DNA of 64,000 nt from Escherichia phage Ge15, in the sequence record PP359696.1. One strand, given 5' to 3'. The position numbers and the translations under genes were made by a program. Below, in pieces: positions 48,538-57,921 of the stretch. How positions within the stretch are numbered: position 1 is the first letter of the stretch; every line of letters starts with the position of its first letter. The notes beneath the pieces are model-generated. The model did no database searches. It was not told the origin of the DNA and saw only the letters and a program-made list of their open reading frames with translations.

Positions 48538-51234
48538 ATGAAAGAATTTTATATCTCTATTGAAACAGTCGGAAATAACATTGTTGAACGTTATATTGAT
48601 GAAAACGGAAAGGAACGTACCCGTGAAGTAGAATATCTTCCGACTATGTTTAGGCATTGTAAGGAAGAGTCAAAATACAAAGACATCTATGGTAAAAACT
48701 GCGCTCCTCAAAAATTTCCATCAATGAAAGATGCTCGAGATTGGATGAAGCGAATGGAAGACATCGGTCTCGAAGCTCTCGGTATGAACGATTTTAAACT
48801 CGCTTATATCAGTGATACATACGGTTCAGAAATTGTTTATGACCGAAAATTTGTTCGTGTAGCTAACTGTGACATTGAGGTTACTGGCGATAAATTTCCT
48901 GACCCAATGAAAGCAGAATATGAAATTGATGCTATCACTCATTACGATTCAATTGATGATCGTTTTTATGTTTTCGACCTTTTGAATTCAATGTACGGTT
49001 CAGTATCAAAATGGGATGCAAAGTTAGCTGCTAAGCTTGACTGTGAAGGTGGTGATGAAGTTCCTCAAGAAATTCTTGACCGAGTAATTTATATGCCATT
49101 CGATAATGAGCGTGATATGCTCATGGAATATATCAATCTTTGGGAACAGAAACGACCTGCTATTTTTACCGGTTGGAATATTGAGGGATTTGACGTTCCG
49201 TATATCATGAATCGCGTTAAAATGGTTCTCGGTGAACGTAGTATGAAACGCTTCTCTCCAATCGGTCGAGTAAAATCTAAATTAATTCAAAATATGTACG
49301 GTAGCAAAGAAATTTATTCTATTGATGGCGTATCTATTCTTGATTATTTAGATTTGTACAAGAAATTCGCTTTTACTAATTTGCCGTCATTCTCTTTGGA
49401 ATCAGTTGCTCAACATGAAACCAAAAAAGGTAAATTACCATACGACGGTCCTATTAATAAACTTCGTGAGACTAATCATCAACGATACATTAGTTATAAC
49501 ATCATTGACGTAGAATCAGTTCAAGCAATTGATAAAATTCGCGGGTTTATCGATCTAGTTTTAAGTATGTCTTATTACGCTAAAATGCCTTTTTCCGGTG
49601 TAATGAGTCCTATTAAAACTTGGGATGCTATTATTTTTAACTCATTGAAAGGTGAACATAAGGTTATTCCTCAGCAAGGTTCGCATGTTAAACAGAGTTT
49701 TCCGGGTGCATTTGTGTTTGAACCTAAACCAATTGCTCGTCGATATATTATGAGTTTTGACTTGACGTCTCTGTATCCGAGCATTATTCGTCAGGTTAAC
49801 ATTAGTCCTGAGACTATTCGTGGACAGTTTAAAGTTCATCCAATTCATGAATATATCGCAGGAACAGCTCCTAAACCGAGCGATGAATATTCTTGTTCTC
49901 CGAATGGATGGATGTATGATAAGCATCAAGAAGGTATCATTCCAAAGGAAATCGCTAAAGTATTTTTCCAACGTAAAGATTGGAAAAAGAAAATGTTCGC
50001 TGAAGAAATGAATGCCGAAGCTATTAAAAAGATTATTATGAAAGGCGCAGGGTCTTGTTCAACTAAACCAGAAGTTGAACGATATGTTAAGTTCAATGAT
50101 GATTTCTTAAATGAATTATCGAATTACACTGAATCTGTTCTTAATAGTCTGATCGAAGAATGTGAAAAAGCAGCTACACTTGCTAACACAAATCAGCTAA
50201 ACCGTAAAATTCTTATCAACAGTCTTTATGGTGCTCTTGGTAATATTCATTTCCGTTACTATGATTTGCGAAATGCTACTGCTATCACAATTTTCGGCCA
50301 AGTTGGTATTCAGTGGATTGCTCGTAAAATTAATGAATATCTGAATAAAGTATGCGGAACTAATGGCGAAGATTTCATTGCAGCAGGTGATACTGATTCG
50401 GTATATGTTTGTGTAGATAAAGTTATTGAAAAAGTTGGTCTTGACCGATTCAAAGAGCAGAACGATTTAGTTGAATTCATGAATCAATTCGGTAAGAAAA
50501 AGATGGAACCTATGATTGATGTTGCATATCGTGAGTTATGTGATTATATGAATAACCGCGAGCATCTGATGCATATGGACCGTGAAGCTATTTCTTGCCC
50601 TCCACTTGGTTCAAAGGGCGTTGGCGGATTTTGGAAAGCGAAAAAGCGTTATGCTCTGAACGTATATGATATGGAAGATAAGCGATTTGCTGAACCGCAT
50701 CTAAAAATCATGGGTATGGAAACTCAGCAGAGTTCAACGCCTAAAGCGGTCCAAGAAGCTCTCGAAGAAAGTATTCGTCGTATTCTTCAGGAAGGTGAAG
50801 AGTCTGTCCAAGAATATTACAAGAACTTCGAGAAAGAATATCGTCAACTTGACTATAAAGTTATTGCTGAAGTAAAAACTGCGAACGATATAGCGAAATA
50901 TGATGATAAAGGTTGGCCAGGATTTAAATGTCCGTTCCATATTCGTGGTGTGCTAACTTATCGTCGAGCTGTTAGCGGTTTAGGTGTAGCTCCAATTTTG
51001 GATGGAAATAAAGTAATGGTTCTTCCATTGCGTGAAGGAAATCCATTTGGTGACAAATGCATTGCTTGGCCGTCGGGTACAGAACTTCCAAAAGAAATTC
51101 GTTCTGACGTACTGTCTTGGATTGACTACTCAACTTTGTTCCAAAAATCGTTTGTTAAACCGCTTGCAGGCATGTGTGAATCGGCTGGTATGGACTATGA
51201 AGAAAAAGCTTCGTTAGACTTCCTGTTTGGCTGA
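48538..51234 (+). CDS. 43: DNA polymerase gp43
   Basis: 898-aa family B polymerase with exonuclease and polymerase motifs (DIE, YGDTDS); exact T4 gp43 length. Confidence 0.97.
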   Translation: MKEFYISIETVGNNIVERYIDENGKERTREVEYLPTMFRHCKEESKYKDIYGKNCAPQKFPSMKDARDWMKRMEDIGLEALGMNDFKLAYISDTYGSEIVYDRKFVRVANCDIEVTGDKFPDPMKAEYEIDAITHYDSIDDRFYVFDLLNSMYGSVSKWDAKLAAKLDCEGGDEVPQEILDRVIYMPFDNERDMLMEYINLWEQKRPAIFTGWNIEGFDVPYIMNRVKMVLGERSMKRFSPIGRVKSKLIQNMYGSKEIYSIDGVSILDYLDLYKKFAFTNLPSFSLESVAQHETKKGKLPYDGPINKLRETNHQRYISYNIIDVESVQAIDKIRGFIDLVLSMSYYAKMPFSGVMSPIKTWDAIIFNSLKGEHKVIPQQGSHVKQSFPGAFVFEPKPIARRYIMSFDLTSLYPSIIRQVNISPETIRGQFKVHPIHEYIAGTAPKPSDEYSCSPNGWMYDKHQEGIIPKEIAKVFFQRKDWKKKMFAEEMNAEAIKKIIMKGAGSCSTKPEVERYVKFNDDFLNELSNYTESVLNSLIEECEKAATLANTNQLNRKILINSLYGALGNIHFRYYDLRNATAITIFGQVGIQWIARKINEYLNKVCGTNGEDFIAAGDTDSVYVCVDKVIEKVGLDRFKEQNDLVEFMNQFGKKKMEPMIDVAYRELCDYMNNREHLMHMDREAISCPPLGSKGVGGFWKAKKRYALNVYDMEDKRFAEPHLKIMGMETQQSSTPKAVQEALEESIRRILQEGEESVQEYYKNFEKEYRQLDYKVIAEVKTANDIAKYDDKGWPGFKCPFHIRGVLTYRRAVSGLGVAPILDGNKVMVLPLREGNPFGDKCIAWPSGTELPKEIRSDVLSWIDYSTLFQKSFVKPLAGMCESAGMDYEEKASLDFLFG

Positions 51235-51247
51235 TAGAATAAATCTA

Positions 51248-51268
51248 GGGACCTCCGGGTCCCTTTTT
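51248..51268 (+). terminator. rho-independent terminator
   Basis: GGGACCTCCGGGTCCC hairpin then TTTTT. Confidence 0.75.
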
Positions 51269-51350: not shown

Positions 51351-51380
51351 GTTTACAAGACTGTTCTTCCATGGTACTAT
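51351..51380 (+). promoter_or_regulatory. early promoter (GTTTAC ... TGGTACTAT)
   Basis: TTTTCACAAAACTGTTTACA upstream element and shared -10 core. Confidence 0.55.
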
Positions 51381-51414: not shown

Positions 51415-51651
51415 ATGAAAATTGTTATGGGATGCTTAGCAGTTTGTTTAGTTGCATTAGCAGCAGTTCCATTTGTTAGTGTTGAAAATGATACTCAACC
51501 TGTGATTGAATCTAGCACCGTTATTCACACTAATGGTAAAATATCAGTTAAAATTGATGATAATCTTCATGTGAATACAAATGGATCTTTAGGTGTGCAA
51601 ATGGGTAATACCTGCATAAGCACTACTGGAGTAATTACTACTTGCATTTGA
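51415..51651 (+). CDS. small secreted or membrane-anchored protein
   Basis: 78-aa ORF from ATG 51415 with hydrophobic N-terminus MKIVMGCLAVCLVALAAVPFVS. Confidence 0.5.
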   Translation: MKIVMGCLAVCLVALAAVPFVSVENDTQPVIESSTVIHTNGKISVKIDDNLHVNTNGSLGVQMGNTCISTTGVITTCI

Positions 51652-51661
51652 GGAAATTATT

Positions 51662-52042
51662 ATGAAAATCGCTATTTTGGTTATTGCATTAGGTCTTACT
51701 GGTTGTGTAGCTCAAGGACCGGTAGTAAATCAGTCTGATGTAGGAAAAATTGTAAACTGTTCAAGCAAATTTTATAATCCTAATGTCAAGTGTTATAAAG
51801 AAGCTCCAAAACAGACAGTAGAACAGATGCAGGCGAATTTTGACGAAGCTATTCGCCCAGATGAATCTGCTCAAGCATATCGTAATTCAGATGTAATTAC
51901 ACGCGAAGAAAAAATTGAAAACTACTGCGCTGAGCTTTGGGCCAATTGGGCTAATAATTACCAATGGCGTACAGGTAAAAATGCTCCGATGGAGTATGTA
52001 GTGAATTCTTATAATTCATGTGTAAAAAATTTGACTAAGTGA
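51662..52042 (+). CDS. predicted lipoprotein
   Basis: 126-aa ORF with signal peptide and lipobox MKIAILVIALGLTGC. Confidence 0.6.
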   Translation: MKIAILVIALGLTGCVAQGPVVNQSDVGKIVNCSSKFYNPNVKCYKEAPKQTVEQMQANFDEAIRPDESAQAYRNSDVITREEKIENYCAELWANWANNYQWRTGKNAPMEYVVNSYNSCVKNLTK

Positions 52043-52049
52043 GGAAAAC

Positions 52050-52301
52050 ATGGAAACTTTAGTAGCAGGTTCAATTTTTATGGTTTTAGTTTCAGGCGTG
52101 TTGGCTATTATTATATACATGCTTCCGTGGTTCATCGCCTTGATGCGTGGGTCAAAATCGACAGTAGGAATCTTTTTCACATCTTTACTGTTTAACTGGT
52201 CAATCATTGGTTGGTTTATTACTTTTATTTGGTCAATTGCGGGTGAAACTAAAAAATCTGTACAGCAAAATCAAGTAATTATCATCAGAGAGAAGGAATG
52301 A
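52050..52301 (+). CDS. imm: superinfection immunity protein Imm
   Basis: 83-aa two-TM membrane protein, T4 Imm size and position between 43 and 42. Confidence 0.85.
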   Translation: METLVAGSIFMVLVSGVLAIIIYMLPWFIALMRGSKSTVGIFFTSLLFNWSIIGWFITFIWSIAGETKKSVQQNQVIIIREKE

Positions 52302-52447
52302 AAAGCAAAATTTTAGCAGTATTGCTTTTAATCTTGATGATTATAATAAGTATATACTATAGCGTAACAGTTCCTCTTATGATTCCGCCACTTATTATAG
52401 GTTGGAGTTTATTACTGTTACAAATTAAATATGAATGCATCAATTGA
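52298..52447 (+). CDS. small hydrophobic membrane peptide
   Basis: 49-aa ORF (below track cutoff) overlapping imm stop; almost entirely hydrophobic. Confidence 0.4.
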   Translation: MKSKILAVLLLILMIIISIYYSVTVPLMIPPLIIGWSLLLLQIKYECIN

Positions 52448-52454
52448 GGTTTAA

Positions 52455-53195
52455 ATGATTAACGATTATATGACAGTTGAAGAAATCCGTCTTCATTTGG
52501 GGCTTGCATTAAAGGAAAAAGATTTCGTAGTTGATAAAACTGGCGTTAAAACTATTGAAATTATTGGCGCATCATTTGTAGCAGATGAACCATTTATTTT
52601 TGGCGCTCTTAATGATGAATACATTCAGCGTGAACTTGAATGGTATAAATCTAAAAGTTTGTTTGTTAAAGATATTCCAGGTGAAACACCGAAGATTTGG
52701 CAACAGGTAGCATCTTCTAAAGGCGAAATTAACTCGAATTATGGTTGGGCCATCTGGTCAGAAGATAACTATGCCCAGTATGATATGTGTTTAGCTGAAC
52801 TTGGTCAAAATCCTGATTCTCGACGCGGTATCATGATTTATACTCGTCCATCCATGCAGTTTGACTACAATAAAGATGGTATGTCAGATTTCATGTGTAC
52901 GAATACAGTACAGTACCTGATTCGTGATAAGAAAGTCAATGCAGTAGTGAGCATGCGTTCAAATGACGTTGTCTTCGGATTCCGTAATGATTATGCATGG
53001 CAAAAATACGTACTAGATAAATTAGTATCTGATTTGAATGCAGGTGATTCAACTCGTCAGTATAAAGCAGGTTCTATTATATGGAATGTTGGAAGTCTTC
53101 ATGTATATTCTCGTCATTTTTACTTGGTTGATCATTGGTGGAATACTGGCGAAACTCATATTGTGAAAAAAGATTATAATGGTGAGTGGAAATGA
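52455..53195 (+). CDS. 42: dCMP hydroxymethylase gp42
   Basis: 246-aa thymidylate-synthase-like ORF, T4 gp42 size and position. Confidence 0.92.
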   Translation: MINDYMTVEEIRLHLGLALKEKDFVVDKTGVKTIEIIGASFVADEPFIFGALNDEYIQRELEWYKSKSLFVKDIPGETPKIWQQVASSKGEINSNYGWAIWSEDNYAQYDMCLAELGQNPDSRRGIMIYTRPSMQFDYNKDGMSDFMCTNTVQYLIRDKKVNAVVSMRSNDVVFGFRNDYAWQKYVLDKLVSDLNAGDSTRQYKAGSIIWNVGSLHVYSRHFYLVDHWWNTGETHIVKKDYNGEWK

Positions 53196-54034
53196 TTCAA
53201 TTCGTAATTCCAAGCTATCAACGCGTAGGGGCAGTTTCTGCCCTTGATATGTTTCCGACTGATTATGAACCTCATATTGTAGTACGTGAACACGAAGAAA
53301 AAGCTTATTATGACGCTTACGGGTCTAAAGCCAAAATTATAACTATTCCTGATGATGTTAATGGAATTGCTGGTACTCGTAAAGCAATTACTGATATGTA
53401 TGCAGGTCAACGAATCTGGATGATTGATGATGATACTACTATTCGTATGAGTTCAATGCGAAAGAAAGATGATCGTCGCTGTGTAGATAAAATTAATCAA
53501 TTAACTCGTGAACAGTTCTATGAATTGATTCAATACGTTGAAGATGCCATGGATTGTGGGTATTATCATGGTCATGCTCGTTTACCAATTTTTAAAATTA
53601 CTTCATCTTGGGGTAATTATCGTGAAAATTCATATGGATTCACGAATACTTGGTATGACCTTGGAAAACTTACGACAGAACAAATTGGGTATGGAAAAAT
53701 TGATTTATGCGAAGATATGTATGCATTTCTCAATTTAATTAATCAAGGTTATCCGCATTTGGCCTTGTTCAAATATCTAGTTGTATCTGGAAAAGCACAA
53801 GCTCCTGGCGGGTGTAGTTCAATTCGTAGTAATTCTAAACATAATAGAGCGCTTGAGCAAATCAATAGAGAGTTTCCAGAGCAAGCTCGTTGGAAAACAT
53901 CGAATATTGAAAAACGAAAATCGTTGGGTGAAGAAGATGAACCACTAAAGGTTCTTCGCATGTGTGTTTCGCGTAAAGAAAAATCAGAAGCATTTCATAA
54001 GTTTAATGCTATTCATCCAATAGCAGTTGATTAA
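53186..54034 (+). CDS. DXD-motif (GT-A-like) glycosyltransferase in the bgt locus; candidate T2/T6-type beta-alpha-glucosyltransferase
   Basis: 282-aa ORF with RIWMIDDDTTI; does not resemble the 351-aa T4 Bgt sequence I know. Confidence 0.55.
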   Translation: MEMIQFVIPSYQRVGAVSALDMFPTDYEPHIVVREHEEKAYYDAYGSKAKIITIPDDVNGIAGTRKAITDMYAGQRIWMIDDDTTIRMSSMRKKDDRRCVDKINQLTREQFYELIQYVEDAMDCGYYHGHARLPIFKITSSWGNYRENSYGFTNTWYDLGKLTTEQIGYGKIDLCEDMYAFLNLINQGYPHLALFKYLVVSGKAQAPGGCSSIRSNSKHNRALEQINREFPEQARWKTSNIEKRKSLGEEDEPLKVLRMCVSRKEKSEAFHKFNAIHPIAVD

Positions 54035-57627: not shown

Positions 57628-57921
57628 ATGAAAAAATTTATCTTTGCTACAATTTTTGCTTTAGCTTCTTGTGCTGCTCAGCCTGCTATGGCAGGTTATG
57701 ATAAAGATTTGTGCGAATGGTCTATGACTGCTGATCAGACTGAGGTTGAAACTCAAATTGAAGCGGATATTATGAATATTGTTGAGCGCGATCGTCCTGA
57801 AATGAAAGCTGAAGTGCAAAAACAGCTTAAGTCTGGTGGTGTAATGCAGTATAATTATGTTCTGTATTGCGATAAAAACTTTAATAACAAAAATATCATC
57901 GCTGAAGTGGTAGGTGAATAA
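57628..57921 (+). CDS. sp: spackle periplasmic protein Sp
   Basis: 97-aa ORF with signal peptide MKKFIFATIFALASCAAQPAMA; T4 Sp size and position. Confidence 0.85.
   Translation: MKKFIFATIFALASCAAQPAMAGYDKDLCEWSMTADQTEVETQIEADIMNIVERDRPEMKAEVQKQLKSGGVMQYNYVLYCDKNFNNKNIIAEVVGE

What the first reader, a model, noticed from the sequence alone, without database searches (positions are those of the whole stretch)
51415..52447. Envelope module around imm: secreted protein, lipoprotein, Imm and a 49-aa hydrophobic peptide
Between polymerase and dCMP hydroxymethylase are four consecutive envelope-targeted ORFs: a 78-aa signal-peptide protein, a 126-aa lipoprotein with lipobox LTGC, Imm, and an overlapping unannotated 49-aa hydrophobic peptide. 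Phage lipoproteins near exclusion genes often block receptor use or DNA injection by competing phages.
Basis: partly seen in the sequence, partly recalled or inferred. Interest (0 to 1): 0.5.

Follow-up and report, generated by a model that had tools for sequence, protein, structure and literature searches.

The report
Conserved T-even imm envelope gene cluster
These four small genes are the ordinary early "imm" gene cluster of T4-like phages, present in hundreds of sequenced relatives. The one open point is that the lipoprotein Imm.1 always travels with the superinfection-immunity gene imm but has never been given a function.

Summary
Four consecutive + strand ORFs each begin with a hydrophobic segment: ORF-A (51415-51651), imm.1 (51662-52042), imm (52050-52301) and ORF-D (52298-52447). 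A run this long has p≈0.012 in this window.

The window is a Tequatrovirus, 98.5% identical to phage PP01. All four ORFs are known sequence families:
- ORF-A: phrog_4189.
- ORF-B: T4 Imm.1, Pfam DUF5481.
- ORF-C: Imm, PF14373.
- ORF-D: phrog_3610. It is missing only from the T4 reference annotation.

All four are under purifying selection; Imm.1 is the most constrained (dN/dS 0-0.06).

The lipobox Cys is kept in five of six divergent Imm.1 lineages. A lipobox protein lies next to imm in six Tevenvirinae genera, and in Mosigvirus imm.1-imm moved together to sit beside spackle.

Receptor masking is unlikely, because Imm.1 is 98-99% identical in T2 and T4, which use different receptors. In T4, imm.1 is expressed early and is non-essential. 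A 2026 preprint shows that Imm alone excludes T4 by binding the tape-measure protein.

My best guess (about 0.4) is that Imm.1 is a periplasm-facing accessory of the Imm injection block. ORF-D and ORF-A are not specifically tied to imm. Known genes, modest interest.

The parts
51247..51264 (+). Intrinsic-terminator-like hairpin (7 bp stem, 5 GC pairs, T-run) directly after gene 43
   Evidence: Identical in T4 apart from one stem base (alignment A1). Annotated as a rho-independent terminator in phage DalCa.
51352..51380 (+). Promoter-like site: TTTACA - 17 nt - TACTAT, with a TG extension and an A-rich upstream stretch. Probably the early promoter of the cluster.
   Evidence: 9/12 match, TG before the -10 hexamer. 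The sequence is invariant between the window and T4. It resembles the T4 early-promoter consensus (my own knowledge, not tested). T4 imm.1 RNA and protein are classed as early.
51415..51651 (+). ORF-A, 78 aa. Predicted secreted or N-terminally anchored small beta-rich protein with a C-terminal Cys67/Cys77 pair. An optional cassette.
   Evidence: MK + hydrophobic core + ALA|AV. phrog_4189, 4e-30, no Pfam match. Present in 325 phage records, all matches in Tequatrovirus-like phages. dN/dS 0.28-0.37. Absent from T4 through a precise 247-bp indel between ATGAAAAT repeats.
51662..52042 (+). imm.1, 126 aa. Predicted lipoprotein (lipobox LTGC, Cys15, Val at +2), with a periplasmic domain carrying Cys33-Cys44 and Cys89-Cys120 pairs.
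   Evidence: Pfam DUF5481 5.4e-72 and phrog_1754. 99% identical to T4 Imm.1. Lipobox kept in divergent homologues. dN/dS 0-0.06. AF2 is confident only for the helical hairpin at residues 81-125.
52050..52301 (+). imm, 83 aa. Inner-membrane superinfection immunity protein.
   Evidence: PF14373 7.8e-16 and phrog_1039. 3 amino-acid differences from T4 Imm. T4 Imm binds tape-measure protein gp29 (preprint).
52298..52447 (+). ORF-D, 49 aa. Small membrane protein, probably a two-helix hairpin, with the conserved motif PxMIP...W...LQxKYECxN. Its start overlaps the imm stop (ATGA).
   Evidence: phrog_3610 1.9e-24. 498 phage records across several Tevenvirinae genera. Intact but unannotated in T4. Homologues in Mosig-, Dhaka-, Gapriver- and Winklervirus. 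dN/dS 0.11-0.44.

Best explanation
**What the region is.** It is the conserved early "imm cluster" of T-even phages. The order is: gene-43 terminator, an early-type promoter, then ORF-A, imm.1, imm and ORF-D, reading on into gene 42. All four are real genes for exported or membrane proteins.

**Imm.** Imm is the known inner-membrane protein that stops DNA entry from superinfecting phages by binding their tape-measure protein.

**Imm.1 (proposal).**
- It is exported through Sec and lipid-modified at Cys15.
- Because residue +2 is not Asp, it is sorted to the periplasmic face of the outer membrane.
- There it displays a small disulfide-stabilised, partly helical domain.
- I propose it works with Imm as a periplasmic accessory of the injection block. 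It could engage a conserved part of the incoming tail tip or tape-measure protein, or support Imm. It would not mask a receptor.

**ORF-D and ORF-A.**
- ORF-D is a conserved two-helix micro-protein, translationally coupled to whatever gene precedes it at this locus.
- ORF-A is an optional secreted protein.
- Neither is specifically tied to imm.

**Shown versus inferred.**
- Shown: gene reality, family membership, conservation, synteny, and (in T4) early expression and dispensability.
- Inferred: lipidation, outer-membrane sorting, and any role of Imm.1 in exclusion.
For: **Identity and conservation.**
- Family matches.
- 462 phage records cover at least 80% of the region at 90-99% identity.
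- Purifying selection on all four genes, strongest on Imm.1.

**Export features.**
- The lipobox Cys is kept at 33-46% identity in four further lineages. One lineage swaps it for a signal peptidase I site, so it is still exported.
- The Cys89/Cys120 pair is invariant. Cys33 and Cys44 are present or absent together, as expected for periplasmic disulfides.
- No homologue has Asp at +2.

**Linkage of Imm.1 to imm.**
- imm.1 lies directly upstream of imm in the window, in T4 and in three metagenomic lineages.
- In Mosigvirus the pair has moved together to lie beside spackle.
- DUF5481 occurs in 656 phage records, against 657 Imm hits in the two identity bands assigned here to Tequatrovirus (90% or more) and Mosigvirus (60-80%).
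- Gelderland-, Jiaoda-, Dhaka- and Gaprivervirus each have a lipobox protein next to imm. These share the post-Cys motif QGxVVxAS(E/D)VGK and a C-terminal Cys pair.
- A Skatevirus siphophage has a secreted protein directly upstream of imm.

**Expression and dispensability in T4.**
- imm.1 is early at both RNA and protein level.
- It is non-essential, as expected for a competition gene.

**Fit with the known target.** Imm's target is a conserved virion protein, which fits the near-invariance of Imm.1.
Against: - Imm alone, expressed from a plasmid, excludes T4 and forms a complex with the tape-measure protein without Imm.1.
- No experiment links Imm.1 to exclusion. Literature searches found none.
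- T4-like genomes are broadly syntenic, so adjacency may be inherited rather than selected.
- Imm homologues in phages 37P2 and LZ35 have no exported neighbour.
- Similarity between DUF5481 and the other genera's lipoproteins covers only the N-terminal 35-42 columns. It is weak once the signal peptide is removed (E=5.5e-5, probability 66%).
- The AF2 model is poor (pLDDT 66) and has no fold match.
- A lipobox pattern also occurs in Spackle, which is reported to be a soluble periplasmic protein. The pattern alone therefore does not prove lipidation.
Confidence: 0.4

Rival explanations
1. Imm.1 (with ORF-A and ORF-D) has an envelope role unrelated to Imm. Examples are resistance to lysis from without, lysis-inhibition signalling, countering an envelope-located host defence, or general envelope remodelling. 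It would sit next to imm only through shared ancestry and shared early expression.
For: - Imm works without it.
- imm.1 knock-down or disruption has no fitness effect in the laboratory.
- T4-like genomes are broadly syntenic.
- ORF-D shows that a membrane micro-protein can stay at this locus independently of imm.
Against: - imm.1 and imm relocated jointly to the spackle locus in Mosigvirus.
- Gene order is permuted but linkage is retained in Dhaka- and Gaprivervirus.
- Imm.1 and Imm co-occur almost one-to-one in two genera, within a region that otherwise gains and loses ORFs freely.
Confidence: 0.3
2. Imm.1 is a receptor-masking lipoprotein in the manner of T5 Llp or phi80/N15 Cor. This is the first reader's leading idea: it would bind the outer-membrane receptor and stop adsorption or triggering of competing phages.
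For: Predicted outer-membrane lipoprotein of similar size, encoded beside an exclusion gene.
Against: - Imm.1 is 98.4% identical in T2 and 99% in T4. These phages use different protein receptors (established knowledge), and the receptor-binding proteins vary while Imm.1 does not (dN/dS about 0).
- There is no Pfam or PHROG match to any Llp or Cor family.
- In classical T-even exclusion, secondary phages still adsorb and eject DNA into the periplasm (T4 record annotation).
Confidence: 0.05
3. The lipobox is not used. Imm.1 would be a soluble periplasmic protein released by signal peptidase I, like Spackle. This rival concerns anchoring only and is compatible with either functional model.
For: - One natural homologue (P0004) has Phe in place of the Cys and an AHA|S site.
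- The RB69-type protein has GAHG just after the Cys.
- Spackle's signal peptide also contains LASC and aligns with the Imm.1 signal, yet Spackle is described as a periplasmic protein.
Against: - L-[TAV]-G-C is retained at the same position in five Imm.1 lineages, and L-[STA]-G-C in four further genera, at under 40% overall identity.
- The window sequence has no good AxA site after the Cys.
Confidence: 0.15
4. ORF-A and/or ORF-D are chance ORFs in AT-rich intergenic DNA and are not genes.
For: They are short. ORF-D is not annotated in the T4 reference, and no proteomic evidence was found here.
Against: - ORF-D is conserved at 50-63% identity over its C-terminal 30 residues across genera, with an invariant motif.
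- Both have ribosome-binding sites, dN/dS below 0.45 and their own PHROG families.
- ORF-A stays intact in 296 records at full length.
Confidence: 0.03

Closest known systems
T4 imm.1-imm locus (Imm.1 = Pfam DUF5481 / UniProt P18057; Imm = PF14373)
   Same: - Same genes, order, spacing and regulatory signals.
- Imm.1 is 99% and Imm 96% identical to T4.
- The terminator, promoter-like site and ribosome-binding site are almost base-for-base identical.
   Different: - The window has an extra 78-aa ORF-A inserted exactly at the imm.1 start codon (247-bp indel).
- Imm.1 is one residue longer, 7 nt separate imm.1 and imm instead of 11, and the lipobox is LTGC instead of LAGC.
T4 Spackle (gp61.3), the periplasmic inhibitor of the gp5 lysozyme
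   Same: - Small, early, Sec-exported, Cys-containing protein of the T-even exclusion repertoire.
- In Mosigvirus its gene is the immediate neighbour of imm.1-imm.
- Its signal peptide resembles that of Imm.1.
   Different: - There is no similarity beyond the 19-residue signal peptide, and no fold match to Spackle structures.
- Spackle is described as a periplasmic protein, whereas Imm.1 is predicted to be lipid-anchored.
Receptor-blocking exclusion lipoproteins (T5 Llp, phi80/N15 Cor)
   Same: Small phage-encoded lipoprotein, predicted to sit in the outer membrane, made early and associated with exclusion.
   Different: - No sequence family match.
- Imm.1 does not co-vary with receptor specificity.
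- T-even exclusion acts after adsorption.
Imm-adjacent lipoproteins of other Tevenvirinae (Melville gp037, JD18_024, JS98 orf43, VR7ORF049c)
   Same: - Lipobox L-x-G-C, post-Cys motif QGxVVxAS(E/D)VGK, C-terminal Cys...Cys pair, 120-170 aa.
- Located next to imm.
   Different: - They are outside Pfam DUF5481.
- Only the N-terminal ~40 columns align significantly.
- In Dhaka- and Gaprivervirus the gene lies after imm and ORF-D instead of before imm.

Membership tests
Pfam DUF5481 (T4 Imm.1 family) | Match to the family HMM above the gathering score | tested here: met
   239.2 bits against a cut-off of 27, E=5.4e-72, profile positions 1-103 of 103. Also phrog_1754, 5e-44.
Pfam DUF5481 (T4 Imm.1 family) | Position immediately upstream of imm | tested here: met
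   Seen in the window, T4, L006, L007, L009 and Mosigvirus Shf125875.
Bacterial lipoprotein (signal peptidase II substrate, PROSITE PS51257 type) | N-terminal basic residue(s), hydrophobic core, lipobox [LVI][ASTVI][GAS]C within the first ~35 residues | tested here: met
   MK-IAILVIALG-LTGC, Cys15. Both the strict and the PROSITE-like pattern match. The Pfam LPAM_1 hit is only 11.5 bits, below its cut-off of 20.
Bacterial lipoprotein (signal peptidase II substrate, PROSITE PS51257 type) | Lipobox Cys conserved in divergent homologues | tested here: met
   T4 LAGC, P0005 LVGC, P0006/RB69-type LTGC, P0007 TTGC. P0004 is the exception (Phe, with an AHA|S site).
Bacterial lipoprotein (signal peptidase II substrate, PROSITE PS51257 type) | Actual diacylglyceryl modification and LspA cleavage; sorting by the +2 rule | not testable with these tools
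   Residue +2 is Val (never Asp in any homologue), which predicts outer-membrane sorting. SignalP and LipoP were not available. Spackle also carries a lipobox-like LASC, so a pattern match alone is not proof.
Imm_superinfect (PF14373), T4 Imm | HMM match above the gathering score, and near-identity to T4 Imm | tested here: met
   58.1 bits against 27.9. 3 of 83 residues differ from T4.
Receptor-masking exclusion lipoproteins (Llp / Cor type) | Sequence relationship to a known Llp or Cor family | tested here: not met
   Pfam and PHROG scans at E≤1 return only DUF5481/phrog_1754 plus sub-threshold noise.
Receptor-masking exclusion lipoproteins (Llp / Cor type) | Specificity tracks the phage's own receptor | tested here: not met
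   Imm.1 is 98.4% identical in T2 and 99% in T4, although these phages use different receptors (established knowledge). dN/dS is 0-0.06.
Spackle (gp61.3) family | Homology of the mature domain | tested here: not met
   hhalign aligns only residues 1-19, the signal peptide. No Spackle structure appears among the Foldseek hits.
o-spanin (outer-membrane lipoprotein of the lysis cassette) | Adjacent or embedded i-spanin partner, and late expression with lysis genes | tested here: not met
   The neighbours are ORF-A and Imm. T4 imm.1 is early at both RNA and protein level.
PHROG 3610 (ORF-D) and PHROG 4189 (ORF-A) | HMM match over the full profile length | tested here: met
   ORF-D: 1.9e-24, profile 1-47 of 47. 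ORF-A: 4e-30, profile 1-71 of 71.
"imm module" as one co-inherited four-gene unit | All four genes co-occur and move together | tested here: not met
   - ORF-A is in 325 of 656 Imm.1-bearing records and absent from T4.
- ORF-D stays at the gene-43 locus in Mosig- and Winklervirus without imm, and is absent from L006.
- Only imm.1-imm behaves as a unit.

The most novel reading that the evidence does not exclude
Imm.1-type lipoproteins would be a regular second component of the Imm system across Tevenvirinae. This covers DUF5481 and its divergent counterparts in Gelderland-, Jiaoda-, Dhaka- and Gaprivervirus. [quoted passage not shown] T-even superinfection immunity would then be a trans-envelope, multi-protein device rather than a single 83-residue protein.
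Probability: 0.3. Interest if true: 0.6.

Novelty: already known. Interest (0 to 1): 0.3.

Why it matters
T4 Imm was only recently given a mechanism: it binds the tape-measure protein (2026 preprint). That work, and the two T4 genome-wide screens consulted, assign no function to the gene that always accompanies imm.

If Imm.1 contributes to exclusion, it would add a periplasmic or outer-membrane component to a textbook system. It could also help explain why plasmid-borne Imm excludes only partly.

If it does not contribute, the region is simply a well-conserved set of small envelope genes of unknown function. In either case the sequence in this window adds nothing beyond what hundreds of Tequatrovirus genomes already contain.

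Tried and rejected
**Structure and family searches**
- **AF2 of Imm.1.** Run with a 7-sequence alignment. Mean pLDDT was 66, and only the C-terminal helical hairpin was confident.
- **Fold and sequence searches.** Foldseek against the PDB gave nothing below E=1. A profile search of PDB sequences gave nothing.
- **Remote homologues.** The word-indexed search found 3 proteins. The exhaustive HMMER search of 1.84 billion representatives found only 6. The family is narrow and offers no functional lead.
- **NCBIfam.** No meaningful hit.
- **Spackle paralogy.** Rejected, because only the signal peptides align.
- **o-spanin.** Rejected on context and expression timing.

**Tests of the module and function ideas**
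- **Receptor-mask idea.** Rejected because Imm.1 is invariant across phages with different receptors.
- **Whether imm always has an exported neighbour outside Straboviridae.** The answer is mixed. It does in SeSz-2 and does not in 37P2 or LZ35, so no general rule follows.

**Literature**
- Searches for imm.1 or DUF5481 found nothing.
- The T4 genome review (PMC150520) is not held.

**Not run**
- The padloc library was not scanned.
- ORF-A was not modelled, because only a shallow alignment was possible.

Full report
**1. What is in the sequence**

The window is a Tequatrovirus of the T2/T6 type. The 1.2-kb region is 98.5% identical to phage PP01. It is found at 90-99% identity in 515 phage records, and 462 of these cover at least 80% of it.

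On the + strand the order is as follows:
- Gene 43, DNA polymerase, 48538-51234.
- A terminator-like hairpin, 51247-51264.
- A promoter-like site, 51352-51380: TTTACA - 17 nt - TACTAT with a TG extension.
- ORF-A, 51415-51651.
- ORF-B, 51662-52042.
- imm, 52050-52301.
- ORF-D, 52298-52447.
- Gene 42, 52455-53195.
- A 282-aa beta-glucosyl-HMC-alpha-glucosyltransferase, then uvsX.

Each of the four small ORFs has a good ribosome-binding site. The ORF-D start overlaps the imm stop as ATGA.

All four begin with a strongly hydrophobic segment. ORF-B has the lipobox LTGC with Cys15.

With a crude gene call, 14 of 124 genes in the window have a TM-like segment. This is the only run longer than two. 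A run of four or more has p=0.012 by permutation.

**2. Identity of each ORF**

- **ORF-B is T4 Imm.1.** It matches Pfam DUF5481 at 5.4e-72 and phrog_1754, and is 99% identical to T4 Imm.1.
- **ORF-C is Imm.** It matches PF14373 and differs from T4 Imm at 3 residues.
- **ORF-D belongs to phrog_3610**.
  - It is intact in T4 but missing from both T4 records.
  - It is annotated in many relatives and occurs in 498 phage records.
  - It is recognisable in Mosig-, Dhaka-, Gapriver- and Winklervirus through the motif PxMIP...W...LQxKYECxN.
- **ORF-A belongs to phrog_4189** and has no Pfam match.
  - It occurs in 325 records, all matches in Tequatrovirus-like phages.
  - T4 lacks it through a precise 247-bp indel between two ATGAAAAT start sequences. 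As a result T4 imm.1 uses ORF-A's upstream region and ribosome-binding site.

Pairwise dN/dS against the window shows that all four are constrained coding sequences:

| Gene | dN/dS |
|---|---|
| Imm.1 | 0-0.06 |
| Imm | 0.06-0.10 |
| ORF-A | 0.28-0.37 (most divergent pairs) |
| ORF-D | 0.11-0.44 |

**3. Is Imm.1 a lipoprotein?**

The DUF5481 family is very small. The exhaustive search found 6 representatives at 50% identity among 1.84 billion proteins. The profile search found 8 clusters at 90% identity.

Evidence that the lipobox matters:
- At 33-46% identity the lipobox is retained: LAGC, LVGC, LTGC and TTGC.
- One lineage (P0004) replaces the Cys with Phe and has an AHA|S signal peptidase I site. 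That protein is still exported but would be soluble.
- Cys89 and Cys120 are invariant. Cys33 and Cys44 are present or absent together, as expected for periplasmic disulfides.
- Residue +2 is never Asp, which predicts sorting to the outer membrane.

One caveat applies. Spackle in this same window (57628-57921) also carries a lipobox-like LASC in its signal peptide, yet it is described as a periplasmic protein. Lipidation of Imm.1 therefore remains a well-supported prediction, not a demonstrated fact.

**4. Linkage to imm**

- imm.1 lies directly upstream of imm in the window, in T4 and in three metagenomic lineages.
- In Mosigvirus (RB69 type) the pair imm.1-imm is no longer at the gene-43 locus. 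It sits directly beside spackle, the other exclusion gene. The ORF-D homologue remains downstream of gene 43, coupled to an unrelated gene.
- tblastn counts agree. DUF5481 is in 656 records (501 at 95% identity or more, plus 155 below 60%). Imm is in 501 records at 90% or more and 156 at 60-80%, the two bands I assign to Tequatrovirus and Mosigvirus. A further 353 more distant Imm records have no detectable DUF5481.
- Four of those more distant genera were inspected, and each has a lipobox protein next to imm. It lies upstream of imm in Gelderlandvirus Melville and Jiaodavirus JD18. It lies after imm and ORF-D in Dhakavirus JS98 and Gaprivervirus VR7.
- These proteins share a post-Cys motif, QGxVVxAS(E/D)VGK, and a C-terminal Cys pair with Imm.1.
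  - Profile-profile comparison gives E=2.8e-11 over 42 columns.
  - After removal of the signal peptides this falls to E=5.5e-5 at 66% probability. Remote homology is therefore plausible but not secure.
- Outside Straboviridae the picture is mixed.
  - Skatevirus SeSz-2 has a secreted protein directly upstream of imm.
  - 37P2 and LZ35 have no exported neighbour.

**5. Published data for T4**

- imm.1 is early at RNA and protein level (PMC9697503 supplements).
- CRISPRi-ART knock-down of imm.1 scores "Not Fit" (PMC11879866 supplement).
- HIDEN-SEQ finds 31 of 31 insertion sites tolerated in imm.1 and classes it as non-essential, the same as imm (10.1101/2025.11.20.689424 supplement).
- A 2026 preprint (10.64898/2026.03.06.709160) reports the Imm mechanism.
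  - Imm binds the helical-bundle domain of tape-measure protein gp29.
  - Plasmid-borne Imm alone excludes T4.
  - The paper does not mention imm.1.
- No paper in the library discusses imm.1 or DUF5481 functionally.

**6. Mechanism**

Receptor masking is unlikely. Imm.1 is nearly invariant in T2 and T4, which use different receptors. T-even exclusion also acts after adsorption.

The best-supported reading has two parts:
- Imm.1 is an early, non-essential, periplasm-facing lipoprotein, probably anchored in the outer membrane.
- It acts in the same process as Imm, on some conserved element of the incoming injection apparatus or on Imm itself.

I put this at about 0.4. It rests on synteny, and Imm clearly works without Imm.1. 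The main rival, at about 0.3, is an unrelated envelope function whose position is simply inherited.

ORF-D is a genuine conserved micro-protein. It belongs to the gene-43-downstream locus rather than to imm. ORF-A is an optional secreted protein of unknown role.

Structure prediction and fold searches gave no functional lead.

**7. Verdict**

The finding describes real, non-random features. They are the ordinary, already catalogued imm neighbourhood of T-even phages.

The receptor-blocking idea is disfavoured. The injection-blocking idea remains a reasonable, untested hypothesis that is now easy to test given the new Imm-gp29 model.

Noticed in passing
window 57628-57921 (lipobox-like LASC at about 57661-57672): The spackle gene (97 aa) lies 5.3 kb downstream. 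Its signal peptide MKKFIFATIFALASCAAQPAMA contains a lipobox-like LASC and aligns with the Imm.1 signal peptide. This raises two possibilities: lipobox patterns in these phage proteins may not be used, or Spackle processing may deserve another look.
   Followed up: partly
window 51415-51422 and 51662-51669; T4 locus L002 around 4014: ORF-A is gained or lost as an exact 247-bp cassette between two ATGAAAAT start sequences. In T4, imm.1 therefore inherits ORF-A's promoter-proximal leader and ribosome-binding site. ORF-A is also about 3 times more divergent at synonymous sites than imm.1 (dS 0.27-0.40 against 0.08-0.16).
   Followed up: partly
window 52032-52034 (in-frame TGA upstream of imm); T4 L002 3374-3658: T4 has a 94-aa extended imm ORF starting at an upstream ATG, and this form was used for cryo-EM in the 2026 preprint. 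In this window the imm frame is closed by a stop 15 nt upstream of the ATG. The extension is therefore not conserved, and the 83-aa form is the common one.
   Followed up: partly
T4 RefSeq NC_000866 26636-27013; several hits: RefSeq names T4 imm.1 "iduronate sulfatase", and the label has spread to other phage records (JLBYU31, JLBYU24, Kelasse). Nothing in Pfam, PHROG or NCBIfam supports it, so it looks like an annotation error.
   Followed up: partly
L020 (Klebsiella phage 37P2) and L022 (Salmonella phage SeSz-2): In two siphophages the imm homologue sits on the opposite strand to the flanking tail genes, within about 1.1 kb of the tape-measure gene. This placement is notable because the tape-measure protein is reported as Imm's target.
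   Followed up: no
L010 3450-3593 (VR7 gene "42.1"): The VR7 record calls the ORF-D homologue "gp42.1, similar to T4 gp42.1", but neither T4 record lists such a gene in this region. The T4 reference annotation simply lacks this conserved 49-aa gene.
   Followed up: yes
window 53186-54034: A 282-aa beta-glucosyl-HMC-alpha-glucosyltransferase (phrog_842, PF20691 TAGT) replaces T4's beta-gt and segA between gene 42 and uvsX. This marks the phage as T2/T6-like in its DNA glucosylation.
   Followed up: no
L005 1126-1383 (phage ELT1) and L004 909-1746 (phage CT01): ELT1's ORF-A has a 7-residue duplication inside its hydrophobic core (LVALAVV LVALAAV). The CT01 record has a duplicated, chimeric imm.1/ORF-A arrangement that looks like an assembly artefact.
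   Followed up: no
window 51530-51600 (ORF-A residues 39-63): Mature ORF-A contains two similar units, HTNGKISVKI and NTNGSLGVQM. They resemble the repeat motifs of fibrous phage proteins. No database match supports this, and the resemblance is unexplained.
   Followed up: no
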